DNA from: Actinomycetes bacterium
GTDB lineage: Bacteria > Actinomycetota > Actinomycetes > S36-B12 > UBA5976
NCBI GenBank assembly: GCA_037137575.1
Contig: JBAXKB010000002.1
Coordinates: 1,833-65,832, forward strand
Length of the DNA: 64,000 nucleotides
Reading direction: 5' to 3'
Made by a program: the position numbers and the translations under genes. Below the pieces are notes generated by a model. It did no database searches, was not told the DNA's origin, and saw only the letters and a program-made list of their open reading frames with translations. How positions within the stretch are numbered: the first letter of the stretch is position 1; each line of letters begins with the position of its first letter. This document shows positions 48,789 to 64,000 of the stretch, one piece after another.

Positions 48789-49631
48789 TTAATCAGCCTT
48801 TTTTCGGTGACTAATAACAGCGTCATAGACCTCGCGCTTTGGCACATTTAGTTCAGTAGCAACATCTGCGACTGCGTCACGAACTGAAATCCCTAAGTCA
48901 ATGCGCATCTGAGTCATGGTTATCCACTGTTCTGGATCGCTGTTGTCGATAGGACTTGCCCCTGCAACGACCAATGTGATCTCGCCAAGAATTTCACCCG
49001 CACACCAAGACTCAAGCTCGCTTAATGAACCTCGAATAATTTCCTCGTGGGTCTTTGTTAATTCTCGGCAAATAACTGCCTGACGGTCTACGCCAAGAAC
49101 CGCGGCCATTTCACTTACGGTTTCAGCTAACCGATGCGGCGCTTCGAAGAAAACCATTGTGCGGGGTTCAAATTGCAATTCAGTCAGTTGACGTATGCGC
49201 GCACCAGATTTTCGGTTCAAAAACCCTTCGAATGTGAATCGGTCTGTTGCAAGGCCACTAATCGCCAGTGCGGCCAAGACCGCAGATGGGCCAGGCAATA
49301 CCCGAACGGTTACTCCGGCTTTGATTGCATGCTGCACTATGCGGTATCCAGGATCGCTTACTGTTGGCATCCCTGCGTCTGAAATGACTACCACGGTTTG
49401 GCCCGCTTGAACAGCAGCAACTAAATCGACAGACTTCGCCTCTTCAACAGCGTCGTAAAACGAAACAATTTTCCCTGGCGCAGTTATGTTTAAATCACGC
49501 AGTAGCCGCACAGCCCGACGAGAATCTTCAGCCGCAACAATATCTGCTGATTGCAAGATTTCCACCAACCGAGCGGAAGCATCAGCAGGATTGCCAATAG
49601 GTGTGGCAGCGAGAAAAAGAGTTCCAGACAC
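48789..49631 (-). CDS. rsmI: 16S rRNA (cytidine1402-2'-O)-methyltransferase
   Basis: VSGTLFLAATPIGNPADAS from the GTG at 49631 is a typical RsmI start, and SDAGMPTVSDPG is also present. The ORF-track start at 49844 is an antisense overlap of pmt upstream sequence. Confidence 0.88.
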   Translation of the reverse strand: MSGTLFLAATPIGNPADASARLVEILQSADIVAAEDSRRAVRLLRDLNITAPGKIVSFYDAVEEAKSVDLVAAVQAGQTVVVISDAGMPTVSDPGYRIVQHAIKAGVTVRVLPGPSAVLAALAISGLATDRFTFEGFLNRKSGARIRQLTELQFEPRTMVFFEAPHRLAETVSEMAAVLGVDRQAVICRELTKTHEEIIRGSLSELESWCAGEILGEITLVVAGASPIDNSDPEQWITMTQMRIDLGISVRDAVADVATELNVPKREVYDAVISHRKKAD

Positions 49632-49677
49632 GAGACCATCATTCCCTATTAGGGCTCTACCCTGTAACTTTGTTGCT

Positions 49678-51279
49678 ATGGCTACAAAACGTCGACCAGT
49701 ACAAGCTCCCATTAAATCTAAACCAGTTACAAAAAATGGTGCCGGGAATCTGCAAAATATTAAATCTAAGCAGCCTGTTGTTTTCGAGCGTACTGGCGAA
49801 CTCGTTGGTGGGTGGCTGGGCTGGCTCGGACCTTTACTTGCCACACTTATCGCGGCGATACTTCGACTGCCACGGCTTGGTACTCCACACGCACTTGTAT
49901 TTGACGAAACTTATTACGCCAAGGATTCACTCTCACTTCTCTACTACGGCTACGAGCGGGCAACTATCCCCACACCAGAACCATCAATTTTGGCTAATAC
50001 CGGTCGGGGACATTTAGATATTTTCACTGCAGACCCAGCATTCGTGGTTCACCCACCAGTTGGAAAGTGGCTAATCGCCTTTGGTGAAAACATCTTTGGC
50101 ATGACCCCATTCGGTTGGCGAATCATGGTGACCCTAGTCGCCATTTTGACGGTGCTGGTAACCGCTCGAGTTACCCGACGATTGCTCAACTCAAATGTTG
50201 CTGGCACTCTTGCTGGACTGTTCTTAGCGCTTGATGGCCTGCACATTGCAATGAGTAGAACCGCACTGCTCGATACGGTTCTGACTTTCTTTGTGGTTGG
50301 TGCTTTCGGATTCCTGCTCATCGATCGTGATTTACGCGCTAGCGAAAATTTTGATAAACGTAAGGCTTTATGGACCAGAGTCGGCTTCACTTTCGCCTCA
50401 GGACTTGCCTGTGCAACGAAATGGAGCGGTATCTACTTCACCGTTGCATTCTTGTTACTCATGATCGGCTGGGACATTGCTCGTCGAACCGAGTACGGTT
50501 TGCAAGCAAGAGTCATGGGCTGGCTCAAAGATGACTTGCTACGGATTACTCTAATTCCAATCGGCGTTGTCGCGATTTACCTCACTAGTTGGATCGGCTG
50601 GTTTAAGTCAACCAATGCTTGGGATCGCAACTGGGCAACCTCAGAGAGTTCGTTCAATTTCATTCCAGCGCCATTGCGCAGCTTGTGGCACTACCACGCT
50701 GAAATGTTGAACTTCCACACTAACTTGCGAGATGCGCACAATTACCGAGCTAACCCTTGGGGTTGGCCGCTCATGATTCGCCCAACAAGTTTCTTCTACG
50801 AAGGCCAACCAACTTGTGGGACGCCACCATGTTCACAGGAAGTAATTCCACTGGGCAATCCGCTCATTTGGTGGGGAGGCGCAATCGCGCTAATCGCACT
50901 GGTTGTATTCATAATTCTGCGTAAACACCGCGCAGCACTTCCAATTATTGTTGGGTTTGCCGCAGGCTGGGTTACTTGGCTTCCTTTCGCCTACCGAACT
51001 ACTTTTCAGTTCTACTCAGTTGTGTATCTTCCGTTCACAATTATGGCGCTGGTGTTATGCATTCAAATCCTTGATCGCAAATATGGATTTGTCAGAATCA
51101 CCAAGGACCGCAAATTTTTAACTTTCCACGATGAAACCCAGGATGGCTGGGGATTTTTCTCACTCGGTTCGTTAGTAATTGTTGGTCTTTTAACGTATTA
51201 CTTCTGGCCGCTATTAGTAGATGTCTCTATTACTTATCAGGACTGGATCAACCATATGTGGCTTAAGAGTTGGATTTAA
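49678..51279 (+). CDS. pmt: Dolichyl/polyprenyl-phosphate-mannose--protein mannosyltransferase
   Basis: About 533 aa from the ATG at 49678. LVFDETYYAKD is the PMT DE motif, with many TM helices. It is divergent from rsmI, as in mycobacteria. Confidence 0.88.
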   Translation: MATKRRPVQAPIKSKPVTKNGAGNLQNIKSKQPVVFERTGELVGGWLGWLGPLLATLIAAILRLPRLGTPHALVFDETYYAKDSLSLLYYGYERATIPTPEPSILANTGRGHLDIFTADPAFVVHPPVGKWLIAFGENIFGMTPFGWRIMVTLVAILTVLVTARVTRRLLNSNVAGTLAGLFLALDGLHIAMSRTALLDTVLTFFVVGAFGFLLIDRDLRASENFDKRKALWTRVGFTFASGLACATKWSGIYFTVAFLLLMIGWDIARRTEYGLQARVMGWLKDDLLRITLIPIGVVAIYLTSWIGWFKSTNAWDRNWATSESSFNFIPAPLRSLWHYHAEMLNFHTNLRDAHNYRANPWGWPLMIRPTSFFYEGQPTCGTPPCSQEVIPLGNPLIWWGGAIALIALVVFIILRKHRAALPIIVGFAAGWVTWLPFAYRTTFQFYSVVYLPFTIMALVLCIQILDRKYGFVRITKDRKFLTFHDETQDGWGFFSLGSLVIVGLLTYYFWPLLVDVSITYQDWINHMWLKSWI

Positions 51280-53606: not shown

Positions 53607-54341
53607 TTACTGGTTTGCTGCCCGATCTTGTTGGGCTACTACTTCAACCGGGCGCACAGATAGAGCAGCGCGGCGAGCCTTTTCCATAGAAAGCGCACGT
53701 GCCTCTTCTAGACGCTTATGGGCTTCTTTGATGCGCTCGGCATGTTGCTGCCTTAGGCGAGCTGCATGTTCAACCATGTCTTGACCAGTCCATGGCTTTT
53801 CGGCATCAATGGCCCGAGGTACCGCAGTTGCGCGCCCAGCTCGAACATAAGCTGGCATTGGCGGTTCGACCGGTTGCCATGTTTTTGTTTGGACAGCAGA
53901 CTCAGCTTGCACAACTGGAGCCGCTAACTCAATTGCCACAGTTGCCTGATTCGCCAATTTAGCTGGAACCGCGGCTATTGAGGTACGAACGGGTGTGTCA
54001 GGGATGGCAATGATTTTGTTGCCATTTTTAACGGCTGCGCCAACGAACGTGACCAAAAGAATTAATGGGACAAACATCCAGACCAGAGAAATAATCCCGG
54101 ATAATCCGGCCAAAACAAGGGCAACAGTGGCAGTTAGCAGAGTCATCAATGTCCGGCGCCGGCGAATAAATGCCTGTTGGCGAGGCGTCGGGGTAACCCG
54201 CTTTTGCCAATGCAATGCGGTTAGCTGACGTTTTATGCCCACTGATTTATGTAGTTGCGCTTGATCGTGCTTCTTGAGAAAAATTGGAAAGAGTACGGCT
54301 GCCCACATCACGATAACGATTAAGTAGAGCAACCCGGTCAT
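53607..54341 (-). CDS. Membrane protein, likely divisome protein SepX/GlpR homologue
   Basis: 244 aa with an N-terminal TM segment (LLYLIVIVMWAAVLFPIFL), a second TM pair and a charged cytoplasmic C-terminal domain. It occupies the position of the conserved membrane protein next to rimJ-moeA-galU in other actinobacteria. Confidence 0.55.
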   Translation of the reverse strand: MTGLLYLIVIVMWAAVLFPIFLKKHDQAQLHKSVGIKRQLTALHWQKRVTPTPRQQAFIRRRRTLMTLLTATVALVLAGLSGIISLVWMFVPLILLVTFVGAAVKNGNKIIAIPDTPVRTSIAAVPAKLANQATVAIELAAPVVQAESAVQTKTWQPVEPPMPAYVRAGRATAVPRAIDAEKPWTGQDMVEHAARLRQQHAERIKEAHKRLEEARALSMEKARRAALSVRPVEVVAQQDRAANQ

Positions 54342-54403
54342 GACTCAATACGGTACGCCGAAAAACTTAAAAACCTTGGCACATAGGTTCGTGTCGCGCA
54401 AAA

Positions 54404-54994
54404 TTAGTGTCGCTTAATTCGGGTGATCATGCTTTGCGAAACTTCATCTTGCATCAGCACATAGATATTGTGATCGCACCAATTGCCATCGATATGTAAA
54501 AATGACTTTCGAAGTCCTTCATATCTGAAACCCAATCGCTGAACGAGACGATTGCTCGGCTCGTTTTCTGGGCGGATCGCAATCTCAATACGATGGAGTT
54601 GCTTAGTGAAAAATAGGTGGTCACAAACTAAAGCTAGAGCTGTGGTCATCAGACCACGATTGGCTACTTTTTCATCAATCCAATAACCGATATGGCAAGA
54701 CCACAGCGACCCGGTCACAATGTCTGAAACATTTATCTGACCGACGAAATTCCCTTGATATTCAAGAACAAAAGGCATGGCATGACCAGTTTTAGCAGCC
54801 TGCAAAATCTTGCGAGTGCTCTGGCGAAATGTGGGAGCCGGTTCCAAATTTGGCGCAGGTGAAGTGGCGTCCCATTTGCGTAACCAATCTTGATTTCGCC
54901 TGCGAACTTCTCGCCAAGATGCGTAGTCGCGCACCTTCAAGGGCCGAAGTACTAAATCTCCATGTGCTAGCCGAACTGGCCAGCCGCTTGTCAT
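54404..54994 (-). CDS. GNAT-family N-acetyltransferase (RimJ/RimL-like)
   Basis: 196 aa with the acetyl-CoA-binding region NRGLMTTALALVCDHLF and IRPENEPSNRLVQRLGFRYEG. ATGA overlap with the upstream gene. Confidence 0.82.
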   Translation of the reverse strand: MTSGWPVRLAHGDLVLRPLKVRDYASWREVRRRNQDWLRKWDATSPAPNLEPAPTFRQSTRKILQAAKTGHAMPFVLEYQGNFVGQINVSDIVTGSLWSCHIGYWIDEKVANRGLMTTALALVCDHLFFTKQLHRIEIAIRPENEPSNRLVQRLGFRYEGLRKSFLHIDGNWCDHNIYVLMQDEVSQSMITRIKRH

Positions 54995-55914
54995 TGATTT
55001 GCCTGCGGATCAAGAAGCATCACTGCCACTGTTTGGCCGGCTTCAACTTTTTGGATTCCACTCGGAACAATGATCAAAGCATCTGCAGTGCCGAGCCCCG
55101 CTAGCGGATGTGTCTCACTGTTTTCTAAAGTGCGAACACGTGTCGTTCCAACATTAGAAGTAATTTGTGCACGGATGTAATGCGTATCGTCGGTACTACT
55201 ATCAATGGTTTCATCCAAAATTGCTTCGACGACCCGGTGGTGTAGCGAGGTCTGCCCCATCATCCTTCGGATTAGCGGGCGGACAAAAACATCAAATGAA
55301 AGTAGCGCTCCAACAGGGTTGCCCGGCAAAACAAAAACAGGTGTTTCGTCTGGCCCAATAGTGCCAAACCCCTGAGCACCGCCCGGCTGCATAGAAACTC
55401 GGACAAACTCCATTCGTCCGATACTTTGCAACACGGTAGTTAAAAGTTCATAATCATCACTAGACATCCCACAGGCAGTCAAAATAACATCTGCTCGAAC
55501 TAACTGATCTTCAAGTGCGCTGCGCAGTGTCTCTTCGTCACTGCGTAACGGGCCTACCCGAAAAGCCATCGCGCCTGCAGCAGTTGCAGCGCTGGTTAGC
55601 GCAACTCCATTAATGTCTGGGATGAGCTCATCATCCGAACCTGGATCGCTTAGATCGTTGCCAACAGTTAGTACAACAACGCGGGGCATCGGATGCACGA
55701 GTACTCGGCCAAGTCCAGCAGCAGCGAGCAGGGCAACATGTCGCGCTGCGATTTGGGTACCGCTACTTAATAGTGTGTATTGCGAATCTTCGTCTGTAAC
55801 AGTCACATCTTGGGCAAGAACCAGGCCAACACTGCCTAACAGTCCGACTTCAAGTGGTTCAATCGCGCGAACATTGGACAAGACAATATCTAAATGCTCA
55901 GGCGCTGATCGCAT
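54991..55914 (-). CDS. Truncated MoeA/gephyrin-like protein (Glp-like); lacks the domain carrying the usual MoeA catalytic motifs
   Basis: 307 aa. The MoeA N-terminus, MoCF-binding domain (VVVLTVGNDL...ADVILTACGMS...MQPGGAQGFG...VFVLPGNPVGAL) and C-terminal beta domain are present. The segment normally containing ..DGYAV.. and ..TGAP.P.. is absent. Confidence 0.7.
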   Translation of the reverse strand: MRSAPEHLDIVLSNVRAIEPLEVGLLGSVGLVLAQDVTVTDEDSQYTLLSSGTQIAARHVALLAAAGLGRVLVHPMPRVVVLTVGNDLSDPGSDDELIPDINGVALTSAATAAGAMAFRVGPLRSDEETLRSALEDQLVRADVILTACGMSSDDYELLTTVLQSIGRMEFVRVSMQPGGAQGFGTIGPDETPVFVLPGNPVGALLSFDVFVRPLIRRMMGQTSLHHRVVEAILDETIDSSTDDTHYIRAQITSNVGTTRVRTLENSETHPLAGLGTADALIIVPSGIQKVEAGQTVAVMLLDPQANQ

Positions 55915-56816
55915 TACTTATCGCCAGCCAAGTGCTGTTCAATCCAAGTGCGTAATTGTGGACCGAATTCTTCTCTGCCCAGTGCAAGTGAGATAACACT
56001 CTTTAAGTAAGAAAGTTTGTCGCCAGTGTCATATCGCTTACCACGGAAAATGACTGCGTGAATGCCTCCGCCGTCTTCGACGGGATGATTAATTAACTGC
56101 GCAAGCGCATCAGTTAATTGAATTTCGCCACCGGCGCCTTTGCCTAAGTTAGCCAAAATTGGAAAAACCTGTGGCTGCAAAATGTAACGACCGATTACTG
56201 CATAGTTACTAGGAGCGTGACCGCTTTGTGGCTTCTCAACAAGGCCAGTTACCCGCACGACATCGTCGATATTTGTTTCAACGATCTCTGCACATCCATA
56301 AAGGTGGATTTCTTCTGGCGCTACTTCCATCAGACATAGAACGCTGCCGCCAAATTGTGCTAAAACTTCGAGCATTTTCGGCAAAATTGGATTGCTGGCA
56401 TCTATCAAATCGTCGCCAAGCATTACCGCGAATGGTTCGTTACCCACATGCCCTTTGGCGACATGGACCGCGTGCCCTAGGCCTAATGGTTCGCCCTGTC
56501 TTACGTAGTGAATTGAGGCGAGGTCGGCCAAATCCGTAAGTGCCCGACTTAATTCGTTAGTTCCGCGTTCTGCAAGTTTCTGTTCCAGATGAGGCGCACG
56601 ATCAAAATGGTCTTCCAACGAAGTCTTGTTGCGCCCAGTGATAAAAAGTACATCCGCTAGCCCAGCTGCTACTGCTTCTTCAACCACATACTGAATTGCT
56701 GGCTTATCAACAACAGGAAGCATTTCTTTTGGGGTGGCTTTAGTAGCTGGCAGGAATCGAGTTCCCAAGCCCGCAACTGGCATTACTACTTTTGTAACCG
56801 AAGCACGTTTTTCCAT
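55914..56816 (-). CDS. galU: UTP--glucose-1-phosphate uridylyltransferase
   Basis: 300 aa with VMPVAGLGTRFLPATKATPKEMLPVVDKPAIQY, the canonical GalU N-terminus. Confidence 0.95.
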   Translation of the reverse strand: MEKRASVTKVVMPVAGLGTRFLPATKATPKEMLPVVDKPAIQYVVEEAVAAGLADVLFITGRNKTSLEDHFDRAPHLEQKLAERGTNELSRALTDLADLASIHYVRQGEPLGLGHAVHVAKGHVGNEPFAVMLGDDLIDASNPILPKMLEVLAQFGGSVLCLMEVAPEEIHLYGCAEIVETNIDDVVRVTGLVEKPQSGHAPSNYAVIGRYILQPQVFPILANLGKGAGGEIQLTDALAQLINHPVEDGGGIHAVIFRGKRYDTGDKLSYLKSVISLALGREEFGPQLRTWIEQHLAGDK

Positions 56817-56891: not shown

Positions 56892-57461
56892 GTGAGCGCA
56901 CAGGCTAAACAAAATTTACGAGTTCAAATTCAAGGACAGCGCGCGAAAATCTCTGAACCAGAACGCTTAAGTGCTGGACTAGGCATTGCGACTCAAGACT
57001 GGGCCAACCTAATCATTGGCAAAACAGTGGCCTGCTACTCGTCGTGGGGTGCTGAACCCGGCACCGTTGAATTGCGTAAAAAACTACTTGAAATTGGCAA
57101 ACAAGTTTTTCTACCCATAATCACTCCAGGTAATCAGATGCGTTGGGGAATTGACCAGCCGCCATTTACAGAGAATAGATTTGGTATCAGCGAGCCAGAA
57201 GTTTCAAACTTTGAGTTAAGTTCAGCTGATGCGATTATTCTTCCAGCACTTTGCGCTGATGAATCCGGCACCAGGCTCGGTCGAGGTGCTGGATATTTTG
57301 ATCGCGCATTAGCGGGCATTGTGCCACTTCAAAATGGTGGCCCGATCAGAATTGCGCTACTTTTTGACGACGAGGTTGTGGAGTCTGTCCCAAGCGATGA
57401 ACATGATGAGCCAATTAATTTAATCGTTACCCCAACACAAACGATCTGGTGCAAAAAATAG
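56892..57461 (+). CDS. 5-formyltetrahydrofolate cyclo-ligase
   Basis: 189 aa with the motifs GAEPGT, LPALCADESGTRLGRGAGYFDR and EHDEPI. Confidence 0.85.
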   Translation: MSAQAKQNLRVQIQGQRAKISEPERLSAGLGIATQDWANLIIGKTVACYSSWGAEPGTVELRKKLLEIGKQVFLPIITPGNQMRWGIDQPPFTENRFGISEPEVSNFELSSADAIILPALCADESGTRLGRGAGYFDRALAGIVPLQNGGPIRIALLFDDEVVESVPSDEHDEPINLIVTPTQTIWCKK

Positions 57462-57467
57462 CGAGGG

Positions 57468-57776
57468 TTAATTACTTGCAGTAGGTGTGCTTGGACTAGC
57501 AGAAGGTGAACTGGGCGAACTTGAAGGCGTGGACTTATCTGCACTAGGAGCAACGGTCGCAGGAGAGCTTGCAACTGGAGTTGCAGAAGTCGATGCACTA
57601 CGCGAGTCAGTGCGATAGAAGCCCGATCCTTTAAAAACCACCCCGACTGAACCATAAACTTTTCGCAATTCGTGCGCTGCGCATGCTGGACACTCAACAA
57701 GCGCGTCATCAGAAAATGACTGCACGATTTCAAGTGGCGCCTCACAGGCCCCACAAACGTACTGATAAGTCGGCAT
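57468..57776 (-). CDS. FmdB-family zinc-ribbon protein with Ser/Pro/Thr-rich tail
   Basis: MPTYQYVCGACEAPLEIVQSFSDDALVECPACAAHELRKVY is the CxxC...CxxC FmdB signature. Confidence 0.85.
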   Translation of the reverse strand: MPTYQYVCGACEAPLEIVQSFSDDALVECPACAAHELRKVYGSVGVVFKGSGFYRTDSRSASTSATPVASSPATVAPSADKSTPSSSPSSPSASPSTPTASN

Positions 57777-58715: not shown

Positions 58716-59579
58716 GTGCATTACCTACCGCAGGACAAATGGCAACTAGCACAGGCCCAACACCACCTAGTCGTTACTGATTGGGTTAATCCACGCTTGA
58801 ATCGCAGGGCGCTGGGCCAAAAGCATCCAGTTGATGACTTTATGTTTGAGTACTACCCAATTAGTGCTAAAAAACTTAGAACTTGGCATCCTGGATTTCA
58901 ATATCGCCTTGACGCGTTTGGAGTTTCTGATGATGATTTTGCTGAGAACATTTACTCAGTTGCTGCTGAAATCTCAGTGAGCCACGAGTGGTTGTCCAGC
59001 CAACAAGATGCCGTAATTGCTCAACTGGACTTTCTAGTTGCCACCAGTAATCGACCAGCTCGCACTGGTTGCTTTGGATTGCACGAATGGGCAATGGTTT
59101 TGGGTCAAAACGAACTTAGGCATAACGACTGGGCGCTGCGAATTGAACAACAGCAAATTGCAGAAACAATCGATGAGGTTGGTTTGCGGTGCACACATTT
59201 TGATGCATTTAGGTTTTTTACCGACGAGGCAAAACCACTCAACCCGTTGCAATTGACGCGCAGCGACCAATCTAATGTTGAACAACCTGGCTGTTTGCAC
59301 GCAAACATGGACTTGTACAAAATTGCAATGCGTTGGGTACCTATATTTGGTTCCCTTTTTGCTAGGAAATGTTTTCGCCTCGCTCGCGATATCCGCACAG
59401 TTGACATGCAAAGTGCTCCATACGATTTGATCGAACTTGGCGTGCAACCTATCAAGATTGAAACTGCACAAGGACGTGCGGAATTTACGCAGAGGCAAAA
59501 AATGTTTAGTGAGCGAGCGCAAAAGTTGCGAGGGAAAATGATTCAACATTTAGAGAGTGCGATTTCAGTTACCAGATGA
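58716..59579 (+). CDS. Conserved actinobacterial protein of unclear function (family that I recall being labelled 3-methyladenine DNA glycosylase in databases)
   Basis: 287 aa. The N-terminal pattern W..P.L.RR..G.KHPV.DF.F.YY...P..LR.WHPG matches my memory of that family. No catalytic motif could be verified by eye. Confidence 0.4.
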   Translation: MHYLPQDKWQLAQAQHHLVVTDWVNPRLNRRALGQKHPVDDFMFEYYPISAKKLRTWHPGFQYRLDAFGVSDDDFAENIYSVAAEISVSHEWLSSQQDAVIAQLDFLVATSNRPARTGCFGLHEWAMVLGQNELRHNDWALRIEQQQIAETIDEVGLRCTHFDAFRFFTDEAKPLNPLQLTRSDQSNVEQPGCLHANMDLYKIAMRWVPIFGSLFARKCFRLARDIRTVDMQSAPYDLIELGVQPIKIETAQGRAEFTQRQKMFSERAQKLRGKMIQHLESAISVTR

Positions 59580-63025: not shown

Positions 63026-64000
63026 CTAGTGCGGGGCACTGGCCACAGATTGAACAGCCGCTGCAACTGCCGGCGCGACTTGTGGATCAAAAACACTCGG
63101 CACAATAAAACTGCTGTTCAGCTGTGTACTTGACACGCAATCTGCAATTGCGCGAGCCGCTGCAACTAAAACATTTTCGGTAATCTGCTTTGCGCCAGCA
63201 TCCAATAACCCACGGAAGATTCCGGGGAATGCCAAAACATTATTAATTTGGTTTGGATAGTCACTGCGCCCAGTTGCAACAATCGCGGCATGTTTACTTG
63301 CTAAAACAGGATCAATCTCCGGGTCAGGGTTCGCTAAGGCAAAGACAATTGCGTTAGGTGCCATTTGTGCAACTTCGTTTTCCGAAATCAAATTTGGCGC
63401 ACTAACACCGATGAACACATCTGTTTGCGCAAAACCTTCAACTAATGTTCCGGTGACTCTGCGGGGATTTGTGTTCTCCAACATCCACTGGCTGGTTTGC
63501 TCACTGTCGGGACGATCTGAATAAATCGCGCCTCTACTGTCATACGCAACGATGTCGGTAGCACCACTTGCCTTCAACAGTTGGGCAATAGCGGTTCCAG
63601 CGGCGCCCGCTCCGCTCATGATGATGCGAAGATCTTTCATCGATTTCTTGACCAGTTTCAATGAGTTAGTCAACGCAGCCAGCACAACAATGGCAGTTCC
63701 GTGTTGGTCATCGTGAAATACCGGTATGTCTAAAAGTTCGCGCAGACGACGTTCAACTTCAAAACATCGAGGTGCTGAGATGTCCTCAAGATTAATTCCG
63801 CCATAAACCGGTGCGAGAATCTGGACGGTTCGCACAATTTCGTCAACATCCTGTGTATCCAGGCAGACCGGCCATGCATCGATATTTGCAAAACGTTTAA
63901 ATAACGCCGCCTTACCTTCCATTACTGGCATCGCAGCCAGCGCGCCAATGTTACCTAAGCCAAGAACCGCTGAGCCATCTGTAACAACAGCGACGGTGTT
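63026..64000 (-). CDS. NAD(P)-dependent malic enzyme, C-terminal ~324 codons (5' end beyond window end)
   Basis: The frame is open to the window edge. MEGKAALFKRFANIDAWPVCLDT, FHDDQHGTAIV and the Rossmann motif SGAGAAG are malic-enzyme hallmarks. Confidence 0.9.
   Translation of the reverse strand, partial: NTVAVVTDGSAVLGLGNIGALAAMPVMEGKAALFKRFANIDAWPVCLDTQDVDEIVRTVQILAPVYGGINLEDISAPRCFEVERRLRELLDIPVFHDDQHGTAIVVLAALTNSLKLVKKSMKDLRIIMSGAGAAGTAIAQLLKASGATDIVAYDSRGAIYSDRPDSEQTSQWMLENTNPRRVTGTLVEGFAQTDVFIGVSAPNLISENEVAQMAPNAIVFALANPDPEIDPVLASKHAAIVATGRSDYPNQINNVLAFPGIFRGLLDAGAKQITENVLVAAARAIADCVSSTQLNSSFIVPSVFDPQVAPAVAAAVQSVASAPH

What the first reader, a model, noticed from the sequence alone, without database searches (positions are those of the whole stretch)
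53607..56816. galU-glp-rimJ-glpR division-type locus with a MoeA/gephyrin-like protein missing its catalytic-motif domain
The order galU, MoeA-like, RimJ-like GNAT, membrane protein matches the conserved actinobacterial locus (galU-moeA1-rimJ-membrane protein in M. tuberculosis, as I recall). In Corynebacterium, the MoeA paralogue (Glp) and the membrane protein (GlpR; SepX in Streptomyces) in this locus were described as cell-division factors. Here the three upstream genes are translationally coupled (TAATG at 55912-55916, ATGA at 54991-54994). The MoeA-like protein is only 307 aa. Compared by eye with E. coli MoeA and mycobacterial MoeA1 (about 410-425 aa), about 115 residues are missing between ...LAQDVTV and LLSSGTQIAARHVALLAAAGLGRVLVHP. 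This is the segment that normally holds the ..DGYAV.. and ..TGAP.P.. motifs. No other molybdenum-cofactor genes are in the window. This looks like a natural minimised gephyrin-like scaffold that has shed molybdenum-insertase chemistry while keeping the GlpR-linked function.
Basis: partly seen in the sequence, partly recalled or inferred. Interest (0 to 1): 0.55.

Follow-up and report, generated by a model that had tools for sequence, protein, structure and literature searches.

The report
Gephyrin-like division protein missing domain II
A freshwater actinobacterium carries a well-conserved copy of the cell-division scaffold Glp (a relative of the enzyme MoeA and of gephyrin) from which one whole domain, holding half of the old active site, has been cleanly removed. 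Similar removals appear to have happened in other actinobacterial lineages too, which suggests that this domain is not needed for the scaffold role.

Summary
On the minus strand, galU (55914-56816), a 307-aa Glp-like gene (54991-55914) and a RimJ-like GNAT (54404-54994) overlap by TAATG and ATGA. A SepX/GlpR-like membrane protein follows (53607-54341).

The 307-aa protein matches C. glutamicum Glp at residues 1-39 and 49-301. About 100-108 residues, essentially structural domain II with the DGYAV and TGAP motifs, are replaced by a 9-residue hairpin. This is not an artefact:
- 86 protein clusters of 299-318 aa share the deletion.
- dN/dS is 0.03 against a 95%-identical orthologue.
- The AlphaFold model is confident (pLDDT 91) and matches Glp, MoeA and gephyrin structures minus domain II.

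The remaining catalytic positions have also drifted, whereas the nearest full-length Glp homologues keep all of them and sit beside moaC and mog. Ten to twelve other divergent families also lack domain II, at the same locus, with different junctions. One is 60-63% identical to full-length Arachnia Glp, so the loss is recurrent.

Best reading: a non-catalytic three-domain Glp scaffold that still works with GlpR. Partner binding, division function and the genome's Moco status are untested. GenBank already names the protein Glp. The missing domain was not mentioned in the two Glp papers read.

The parts
55914..56816 (-). galU (UTP-glucose-1-phosphate uridylyltransferase), 300 aa. First gene of the cluster. 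Its stop overlaps the glp start (TAATG).
   Evidence: TIGR01099 scores 321.9 bits (cutoff 326.8) and Pfam NTP_transferase matches. The overlap was checked.
54991..55914 (-). glp lacking domain II: 307-aa gephyrin/MoeA-like protein with three domains (I, III, IV).
   Evidence: GenBank MEI7442057.1 is named 'gephyrin-like molybdotransferase Glp'.
55798..55914 (-). Glp residues 1-39: the N-terminal strand/helix and the first half of domain I. Aligns to C. glutamicum Glp 1-39 (MRS..EHL..VL...PLE...LLG.VG.VLAQDV).
55771..55797 (-). Junction, residues 40-48 (TDEDSQYTL): a short beta-hairpin turn that replaces the roughly 100-108 residues of domain II. It is one of the two least conserved parts of the protein within the clade.
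   Evidence: The model has strands 37-41 and 44-49 with pLDDT about 91-94. Conservation is 0.51.
55693..55770 (-). Residues 49-74: second half of domain I.
55681..55695 (-). Residues 74-78, HPMPR: proline-rich hinge 2 between domains I and III, a Glp signature. E. coli MoeA has IRKVR here.
   Evidence: The signature is defined in PMC10522489.
55249..55692 (-). Residues 75-222: domain III (MogA-like, MoCF_biosynth). It is the most conserved part, with 51 invariant positions. Catalytic positions are altered: E188 to D, D228 to S, G251 to C.
55009..55248 (-). Residues 223-302: domain IV (MoeA_C). It includes the beta-hairpin (residues 244-262, window 55129-55185) that corresponds to the FtsZ/GlpR-binding hairpin of C. 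glutamicum Glp. The tip sequence is variable and M361/Y369 are not conserved.
   Evidence: PMC10522489.
54404..54994 (-). RimJ-like GNAT acetyltransferase, 196 aa. Its start overlaps the glp stop (ATGA).
   Evidence: Pfam Acetyltransf_3 matches. NCBIfam PRK10809 scores 92.9 bits, below the cutoff of 190.
53607..54341 (-). Divergent SepX/GlpR-like membrane protein, 244 aa. TM1 is at residues 4-22, and a 38-residue hydrophobic block at 66-103 probably forms two TM helices. It has a short basic loop and a cytoplasmic C-terminal tail.
   Evidence: NF050099 SepX_GlpR_2 scores 48.5 bits, E 1e-12, below the cutoff of 150. Hydropathy. Alignment with GlpR of related loci.
53847..53879 (-). GlpR tail motif W155..P163.Y165 (WQPVEPPMPAY). 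These positions are invariant across all eight GlpR-like proteins aligned, including L007's, which scores 136 bits (just under the cutoff of 150). The two that pass the cutoff (L018, L019) were not in that alignment. This is a candidate partner-binding motif, by inference only.
56892..57461 (+). 5-formyltetrahydrofolate cyclo-ligase: the conserved divergent flank of the locus in all related loci.

Best explanation
The 307-aa gene encodes an orthologue of the actinobacterial divisome scaffold Glp, a repurposed MoeA/gephyrin-type protein. Structural domain II has been excised in frame, leaving domains I, III and IV joined by a short hairpin.

Domain II supplies one wall of the Mo-insertase active-site cleft (D59, T100, R137, D142 in E. 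coli numbering). Several remaining catalytic positions have also changed. The protein therefore cannot act as a conventional molybdenum insertase.

It is kept under strong purifying selection, translationally coupled to galU and a GNAT, and always one gene upstream of a SepX/GlpR-type membrane protein. It most likely acts as a dimeric cytoplasmic adaptor that docks on the GlpR tail at the membrane, and probably on FtsZ, through domain IV and the central dimer face, as in Corynebacterium.

Shown: the anatomy, the conservation, the fold, the loss of catalytic residues, the synteny and the recurrence. Inferred: dimerisation, GlpR or FtsZ binding, and a role in division.
For: - Deletion mapped to domain II. 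Domain limits come from PMC10522489.
- The Glp model scores 290.6 bits and the MoeA_actino model 187.1.
- 86 short clusters exist. dN/dS is 0.03, and amino-acid conservation equals that of galU.
- AF2 model has pLDDT 91.2 and pTM 0.88.
- Foldseek's top hits are 8BVF/8BVE, Cnx1E, gephyrin E and MoeA, with TM-score 0.80-0.88 on the query and about 0.65 on the targets. Two chains in which only about 320 residues are modelled fit best by target-normalised TM-score (2nqm_A, rmsd 2.8 A; 9gw9_B).
- Catalytic positions are deleted or drifted in the short clade but invariant in 84 full-length neighbours.
- Hinge-2 PxPR is kept.
- A GlpR-like gene lies downstream in every short-form locus in which the downstream gene could be read (window, L003-L006, L009/L010, L012-L014). 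L001 was not inspected and in L011 the downstream ORF is cut by the contig end.
- An independent in-place deletion is seen in an Arachnia-like lineage with identical synteny.
Against: - The Corynebacteriales FtsZ-loop markers (M361, Y369) are not conserved, and the hairpin is two residues shorter than in C. glutamicum Glp, with a variable tip.
- The monomer model resembles closed MoeA/Cnx1E slightly more than open C. glutamicum Glp.
- The GlpR-like protein scores below the NCBIfam cutoff. Its first loop is short and basic rather than long and acidic (PMC10522489).
- Domain III, not domain IV, is the most conserved part. This could point to a ligand or partner other than FtsZ/GlpR.
- No binding, localisation or genome-wide Moco data are available.
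Confidence: 0.65

Rival explanations
1. It is a non-catalytic remnant kept for a role unrelated to the divisome. Examples: a small-molecule (pterin or nucleotide) binding protein using the MogA-like domain III, or a partner of the co-translated GalU or GNAT enzymes.
For: Domain III is the most conserved region, with 51 invariant positions including a clade-specific ACGM motif. The gene is tightly translationally coupled to galU and the GNAT. The FtsZ-loop signature is not conserved.
Against: The gene stays next to glpR in every lineage examined, even where galU or the GNAT is absent from the locus (L012, L020). The MPT-binding glycine motif is altered: G251 is Cys in 86 of 86.
Confidence: 0.2
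2. It is a GlpR-only adaptor. The short Glp still binds its membrane receptor but has lost the direct FtsZ contact, so recruitment to the septum runs through GlpR or other proteins.
For: The hairpin is shorter than in C. glutamicum Glp, its tip is variable, and the M361/Y369 equivalents are missing. The invariant W..P..P.Y motif in the GlpR tails suggests a conserved Glp-GlpR contact.
Against: In C. glutamicum the FtsZ peptide is held largely by main-chain beta-strand hydrogen bonds (PMC10522489), which tolerate sequence change. The same loop is needed for GlpR binding there.
Confidence: 0.2
3. It is still a working molybdenum insertase with a rearranged or trans-complemented active site.
For: R350, N300, H372 and D259 (as D or E) are largely kept, and LPGNP is conserved.
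Against: The whole MoeA_N domain II region is absent, with D59, T100, R137 and D142. E188, D228, G251 and S371 are changed or variable. No separate domain-II coding piece is in the window or in related loci. moaC and mog, present in the operon of full-length relatives, are absent here.
Confidence: 0.04
4. It is a pseudogene, an assembly error or a mis-called ORF.
For: None beyond the short length.
Against: The same 299-318 aa form is found in 86 clusters from independent assemblies (JGI, ENA, NCBI, Logan). dN/dS is 0.03. The structure model is confident. The gene abuts galU and the GNAT with no spare DNA.
Confidence: 0.01

Closest known systems
Glp of Corynebacterium glutamicum (Cgl0883; PDB 8BVE/8BVF; Martinez et al. 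2023, PMC10522489)
   Same: Best sequence and structure match. The locus with a GNAT and GlpR downstream is the same. The PxPR hinge 2 is kept. Domains I, III and IV and the domain IV hairpin are present. The active site is degenerate.
   Different: Domain II (Cg residues 46-145) is absent. Identity over shared columns is 31%. The hairpin is two residues shorter and lacks M361/Y369. The partner GlpR has a short basic first loop instead of a 190-residue acidic one.
MoeA molybdopterin molybdotransferase (E. coli b0827; PDB 1G8L, 2NQx series) and plant Cnx1E
   Same: The fold of domains I, III and IV is shared (TM-score 0.86-0.88 on the query). The LPGNP motif and R350 are kept.
   Different: No MoeA_N domain II. 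Catalytic residues D59, T100, R137 and D142 are deleted, and E188, D228 and G251 are replaced. Identity is 26%. No Moco genes lie nearby.
Gephyrin E domain (PDB 2FTS, 4PD1, 9GW9)
   Same: A MoeA-derived scaffold that links a membrane receptor to a tubulin-type cytoskeleton. The cryo-EM filament chain 9gw9_B, in which only 322 residues are modelled, superposes well (TM-score 0.80 on the target).
   Different: Gephyrin keeps all four subdomains and its catalytic activity. It uses a different receptor-binding site and is fused to a MogA-like G domain.
Full-length Glp of high-GC actinobacterial MAGs (P0097, P0117, P0115; loci L007, L018, L019)
   Same: These are the nearest full-length homologues (45-48% identity). 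The locus frame with the 5-FTHF cyclo-ligase, GNAT and GlpR is the same. They pass the NCBIfam Glp cutoff.
   Different: They keep domain II and every catalytic residue. moaC and a mog/moaB-like gene sit between glp and the GNAT.
SepX (Streptomyces, PMC8748795) / GlpR (Corynebacterium)
   Same: Three-TM membrane protein encoded two genes downstream of glp. Weak but specific NCBIfam SepX_GlpR hits. A shared tail motif.
   Different: Scores well below the curated cutoff (48.5 against 150 bits). It is much shorter, with compact loops.

Membership tests
Glp (molybdotransferase-like divisome protein; NCBIfam NF045515; Martinez 2023) | Sequence is closer to the Glp clade than to other actinobacterial MoeA paralogues | tested here: met
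   Glp_gephyrin scores 290.6 bits and MoeA_actino 187.1. The margin is similar (about 65-110 bits) for six other short forms.
Glp (molybdotransferase-like divisome protein; NCBIfam NF045515; Martinez 2023) | Reaches the curated equivalog cutoff (475 bits) over the full 403-position profile | tested here: not met
   The score is 290.6 bits and only profile positions 145-403 are matched. The shortfall is due to the missing domain.
Glp (molybdotransferase-like divisome protein; NCBIfam NF045515; Martinez 2023) | Four-domain MoeA architecture (domains I-IV) | tested here: not met
   No MoeA_N is detected. CgGlp 40-147 is absent. The model has three domains.
Glp (molybdotransferase-like divisome protein; NCBIfam NF045515; Martinez 2023) | Proline-rich hinge regions between domains I and III | tested here: met
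   Hinge 2 reads HP(K/M)PRVV, with both prolines near-invariant in 86 sequences. E. coli has IRKVR there. Hinge 1 is only partial: IEPLE in the window, PLEPLE in the clade.
Glp (molybdotransferase-like divisome protein; NCBIfam NF045515; Martinez 2023) | FtsZ-binding loop delimited by M361 and Y369 (Corynebacteriales signature) | tested here: not met
   A hairpin is present in the model (strands 244-254 and 257-262). It is two residues shorter, its tip is variable, and the M/Y equivalents are absent. The signature was defined only for Corynebacteriales.
Glp (molybdotransferase-like divisome protein; NCBIfam NF045515; Martinez 2023) | Co-localisation and co-occurrence with glpR | tested here: met
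   A GlpR-like gene lies downstream in the window and in every short-form locus in which the downstream gene could be read.
Glp (molybdotransferase-like divisome protein; NCBIfam NF045515; Martinez 2023) | Open homodimer that binds the FtsZ C-terminal peptide and GlpR; mid-cell localisation | not testable with these tools
   Only a monomer model could be made. It is slightly closer to closed MoeA than to open Glp, which is not decisive.
MoeA (molybdopterin molybdotransferase) | MoeA_N region with active-site residues D59, T100, R137, D142 | tested here: not met
   These are deleted in 86 of 86 short-clade proteins and present in 83-84 of 84 full-length neighbours.
MoeA (molybdopterin molybdotransferase) | Domain III/IV active-site residues (E188, D228, G251-G252, S254, D259, R350, S371) | tested here: not met
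   E188 is D/E/N/A/T, D228 is S in 75 of 86, G251 is C in 86 of 86, and S371 is variable. R350 and D259 (as D or E) are kept.
MoeA (molybdopterin molybdotransferase) | Occurs with the rest of the Moco pathway and with molybdoenzymes | tested here: inconclusive
   None is found in the 64-kb window or in the short-form loci by tblastn. The rest of the genome could not be read. Moco content varies among freshwater Nanopelagicales (PMC12817590).
SepX/GlpR (divisome membrane receptor) | Sequence match to the NCBIfam SepX_GlpR models at the curated cutoff | tested here: not met
   NF050099 scores 48.5 bits (E 1e-12) against a cutoff of 150. Relatives range from 47.7 to 170 bits, and L018 and L019 pass.
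SepX/GlpR (divisome membrane receptor) | Three TM segments with cytoplasmic loop and tail; encoded next to glp | tested here: met
   TM at residues 4-22 plus a 38-residue hydrophobic block at 66-103. Synteny as above. W155, P163 and Y165 are invariant across the eight loci aligned.
GalU | TIGR01099 equivalog score | tested here: inconclusive
   The score is 321.9 bits against a cutoff of 326.8, with full-length coverage. It is GalU-type in all but the last few bits.

The most novel reading that the evidence does not exclude
Loss of domain II is a recurrent, convergent end-point of Glp evolution. It defines the minimal three-domain divisome scaffold.

The ancestral actinobacterial Glp would have been a true moonlighting enzyme. 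It still looks like one in lineages where an intact-active-site glp sits in a galU-glp-moaC-mog-GNAT-glpR operon. Lineages then drop the catalytic residues and finally the whole domain, once Mo insertion is lost or handed to a paralogue.

This would qualify the published view that Glp in general has lost its enzymatic role. It would also give a natural separation-of-function series.
Probability: 0.45. Interest if true: 0.7.

Novelty: new variant of a known kind. Interest (0 to 1): 0.55.

Why it matters
Glp/GlpR is a recently described actinobacterial division module, and it is the only bacterial parallel to the gephyrin-receptor system. Whether Glp needs any of its enzyme heritage is open. The argument so far rests on poor conservation of the active site.

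Here nature has done the deletion experiment. A whole domain carrying half of the active site is removed, and the protein stays as conserved as GalU and stays linked to GlpR. This happened in a large freshwater clade and, independently, in at least one Propionibacteriaceae-like lineage and probably several more.

Consequences:
- It marks domains I, III and IV as the likely functional core.
- It tells experimenters which truncation of C. glutamicum or M. tuberculosis Glp to try.
- It warns that pipelines which name these proteins 'molybdopterin molybdotransferase' (as JGI does for members of this cluster) may credit them as MoeA when reconstructing Moco pathways.
- The contrasting full-length Glps inside moaC-mog operons suggest that some Glps still moonlight.

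Tried and rejected
- The profile search with all short forms was dominated by the same clade and by full-length Glps. It gave no taxonomy.
- Cluster look-ups gave only 'Actinomycetes/Actinobacteria bacterium' names, so the lineage stays unresolved. A freshwater streamlined actinobacterium is likely, given 48% GC and a related contig of 1.02 Mb. Nanopelagicales is a guess, not a result.
- The window has no rRNA for placement.
- The local Pfam copy lacks PF28211 (GlpR), so that scan was uninformative.
- The promoter and terminator scan gave no more hits than shuffles.
- A weak MobB hit at 63416-63583 turned out to be the malic-enzyme NAD-binding domain.
- The NJ tree has no support values and short deep branches. 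I use it only together with the pairwise identities and junction differences.
- A fused-chain AlphaFold run to test Glp-GlpR contact was not attempted.
- An ancestral short form was rejected. Domain II is universal in MoeA, and P0218 appears derived from full-length Arachnia/Tessaracoccus-type Glp: it is 60-63% identical to them, against 33-39% to other short forms, and shares their locus.


Full report
**Observation**

- galU, 55914-56816
- a 307-aa MoeA-like gene, 54991-55914
- a GNAT, 54404-54994
- a 244-aa membrane protein, 53607-54341

The overlaps TAATG (55912-55916) and ATGA (54991-54994) are real. A 62-nt gap precedes the membrane-protein gene.

Family scans give these results:
- galU: TIGR01099 scores 321.9 bits against a cutoff of 326.8.
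- The 307-aa protein: Pfam MoCF_biosynth at residues 81-216 and MoeA_C at 231-301, but no MoeA_N.
- The GNAT: RimJ-like, PRK10809 92.9 bits, below its cutoff.
- The membrane protein: NCBIfam SepX_GlpR_2, 48.5 bits, E 1e-12, cutoff 150.

The flanks resemble, as far as I recall it, the M. tuberculosis Rv0992c-Rv1007c region. They hold 5-FTHF cyclo-ligase, an FmdB zinc ribbon, a SAF protein, a P-type ATPase, PMT, RsmI and MetS.

**What is missing**

The best NCBIfam model is Glp_gephyrin at 290.6 bits, against 187.1 for MoeA_actino. Only profile positions 145-403 are matched.

Against solved structures the best hit is C. glutamicum Glp (8BVE). Residues 1-39 align to Glp 1-39 and residues 49-301 align to Glp 156-415.

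A multiple alignment with E. coli MoeA, C. glutamicum Glp and database homologues puts the gap at CgGlp 40-147. That is 108 residues in C. glutamicum, 100 in the nearest full-length homologue and 95 in E. coli. Nine residues, TDEDSQYTL, bridge the gap.

Martinez et al. define Glp domain II as residues 46-145, inserted between the two halves of domain I (PMC10522489). The deletion is therefore essentially a clean excision of domain II, extended by about six residues on its N-terminal side. The excised block carries the DGYAV and TGAP.P motifs.

The gene abuts its neighbours, so there is no room for a frameshifted remnant. tblastn with four domain II sequences finds nothing in the window or in related loci.

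**Not an artefact**

- The homologue search returns 86 clusters (at 90% identity) of 299-318 aa, 56-95% identical to the query, from JGI, ENA, NCBI and Logan assemblies. Full-length proteins of about 405 aa appear only at 48% identity and below.
- Loci L003 to L006 carry the same gene order.
- Against the 95%-identical orthologue in L001, dN/dS is 0.03. Against L003 and L005, synonymous sites are saturated while amino-acid identity (82% and 66%) equals that of galU (80% and 67%).
- An AlphaFold2 model built on 74 homologues has mean pLDDT 91.2 and pTM 0.88. The junction forms a beta-hairpin (strands 37-41 and 44-49) with pLDDT above 90.
- Foldseek against the PDB returns Glp (8BVF/8BVE), Cnx1E, gephyrin E and MoeA. 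TM-scores are 0.80-0.88 normalised on the query and about 0.65 on the targets. Two chains in which only about 320 residues are modelled fit best by target-normalised TM-score: 2nqm_A (0.84, rmsd 2.8 A) and 9gw9_B (0.80).

**Loss of chemistry**

The E. coli MoeA residues probed by the 2NQx mutant structures are T100, R137, D142, E188, D228, K279, R350 and S371, as named. I mapped these, plus D59 and the glycine motif.

| Group | Result |
|---|---|
| 84 nearest full-length homologues | D59, G60, Y61, T100, G101, R137, D142, E188, D228, G251, G252, S254, D259, N300, R350, S371 and H372 are present in 83-84 of 84 |
| 86 short-clade proteins | The domain II residues are deleted. E188 is D/E/N/A/T. 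D228 is Ser in 75. G251 is Cys in all 86. S371 is variable. R350 and D259 (as D or E) remain |

The full-length homologues pass the curated Glp cutoff, at 552-597 bits against 475. In three loci they sit in [galU]-glp-moaC-mog/moaB-like-GNAT-glpR operons; galU is missing from L007. In L007 an Oxidored_molyb gene lies nearby. They come from organisms with 70-75% GC, so they are protein-level neighbours, not sister organisms.

In the window and the short-clade loci, moaC and mog are absent from the operon. No MoaA/B/C/D, MobA/B, Mog, MoeB or Oxidored_molyb-type (L007) homologue is found. The rest of the genome could not be examined.

**Retained Glp features**

- Hinge 2 between domains I and III reads HP(K/M)PRVV, with both prolines near-invariant. 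E. coli has IRKVR. This is one of the Glp signatures of Martinez et al..
- Hinge 1 is partial.
- The domain IV hairpin that binds the FtsZ C-terminal peptide, and that is required for GlpR binding in C. glutamicum, is present in the model. It is two residues shorter, its tip is among the least conserved stretches (0.47), and the M361/Y369 markers are absent. That signature was defined only within Corynebacteriales. The FtsZ contact there is largely through main-chain hydrogen bonds. The test is therefore 'not met' for membership but not decisive for mechanism.
- Domain III is the most conserved region, with 51 invariant positions.

**The partner**

The downstream membrane protein has a TM helix at residues 4-22, a 38-residue hydrophobic block at 66-103 that probably forms two helices, a short basic loop and a cytoplasmic tail.

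The proteins in the same position in L003, L005, L007, L009, L012, L013 and L014 align with it. They share invariant W155, P163 and Y165 within a W.P...P.P.Y motif. Their SepX_GlpR_2 scores run from 47.7 to 136 bits. Those of L018 and L019 pass the cutoff but were not part of that alignment.

The window protein is thus a divergent, compact SepX/GlpR relative.

**Recurrence**

An exhaustive search of 1.84 billion representatives shows that, among the best 150 Glp-like representatives, 10-12 further families lack domain II while keeping the N-terminus. They are 31-44% identical to the query.

- Their junctions differ in length (0-14 residues) and in sequence.
- Their hosts range from 36% to 68% GC.
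- The five I could look up lie at the same locus (L009, L011, L012, L013, L014).
- Several are closer to full-length proteins than to any other short form. The identities to the best full-length protein and to the best other short form are: P0218 60% and 39%, P0214 52% and 40%, P0232 51% and 39%, P0167 53% and 44%.
- A crude NJ tree scatters them.

The clearest case is P0218. Its nearest relatives are full-length Glp/MoeA-annotated proteins of Arachnia and Tessaracoccus at 62-63% identity. Its locus L012 matches the Arachnia locus L020 from the UDPGP gene through the GlpR-like gene. The pairwise alignment shows the same N-terminal extension and a clean gap of about 90 residues at domain II.

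In that lineage the full-length protein already has a degenerate active site, with TGAP changed to AGE/AGD.

So domain II has been lost at least twice, and probably five or more times.

**Comparison with the literature**

Glp and GlpR were described in 2023 (PMC10522489). [quoted passage not shown] It states that the four domains are highly similar in all MoeA proteins and that Glp-carrying bacteria have at least two moeA copies (PMC11733289).

Neither paper mentions a form without domain II. A search for 'truncat' finds nothing in either. 'Domain II' occurs only in the 2023 structure description. A library search found nothing further.

GenBank's pipeline already names this very protein 'gephyrin-like molybdotransferase Glp' (MEI7442057.1). 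JGI calls cluster members 'molybdopterin molybdotransferase'.

The finding is therefore a new structural variant of a known family, not a new kind of system.

**Mechanism and limits**

I conclude with high confidence that this is a three-domain, non-catalytic Glp orthologue under purifying selection.

That it dimerises, binds the GlpR tail and probably FtsZ, and acts in division is inferred from orthology, synteny and co-conservation, at about 0.6 confidence.

Unresolved:
- the organism, known only as 'Actinomycetes bacterium'. It is probably a streamlined freshwater lineage, given 48% GC and a related contig of 1.02 Mb.
- the genome-wide Moco status. Moco biosynthesis is patchy even within Nanopelagicales (PMC12817590).
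- whether FtsZ binding survives.

Noticed in passing
L007:6001-9995, L018:5060-9702, L019:5015-9923: The nearest full-length Glp homologues pass the NCBIfam Glp cutoff and keep all MoeA catalytic residues (83-84 of 84). They sit in [galU]-glp-moaC-mog-like-GNAT-glpR operons. This looks like a moonlighting enzyme-plus-divisome Glp, at odds with the published generalisation that Glp has lost catalysis.
   Followed up: partly
L012:5001-6086 compared with L020:6001-7308: An Arachnia-like (Propionibacteriaceae) lineage has an independent, in-place deletion of Glp domain II (about 90 residues) in an otherwise matching locus from the UDPGP gene to the GlpR-like gene. The full-length relatives there already have a degenerate TGAP motif.
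   Followed up: yes
window 53847-53879 (-): The GlpR-like tail motif W155..P163.Y165 is invariant across eight divergent loci. It is a candidate Glp-binding peptide and is untested.
   Followed up: partly
window 58716-59579 (+): A 287-aa ORF has no Pfam match. A gene of the same size with no Pfam family on record sits in the same neighbourhood in L003 (2670-3542) and L005 (543-1412). Function unknown; the sequences were not compared.
   Followed up: no
window 57468-57776 (-): An FmdB-type zinc-ribbon protein has a Ser/Pro/Thr/Ala-rich low-complexity C-terminal tail. An FmdB ribbon recurs near the glp locus in most related loci.
   Followed up: no
window 49486-51279 (+) and 48789-49844 (-): The mechanical ORFs for the PMT mannosyltransferase (597 aa) and RsmI (351 aa) overlap head-to-head by about 360 nt. 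The orthologues called in L003 and L005 are shorter (PMT 533 and 501 aa), so the true starts are probably further in.
   Followed up: no
window 54991-55914 (-): JGI names members of this protein's cluster 'molybdopterin molybdotransferase'. Such labels could lead pathway reconstructions to credit Moco biosynthesis with a MoeA step that this protein cannot perform.
   Followed up: no
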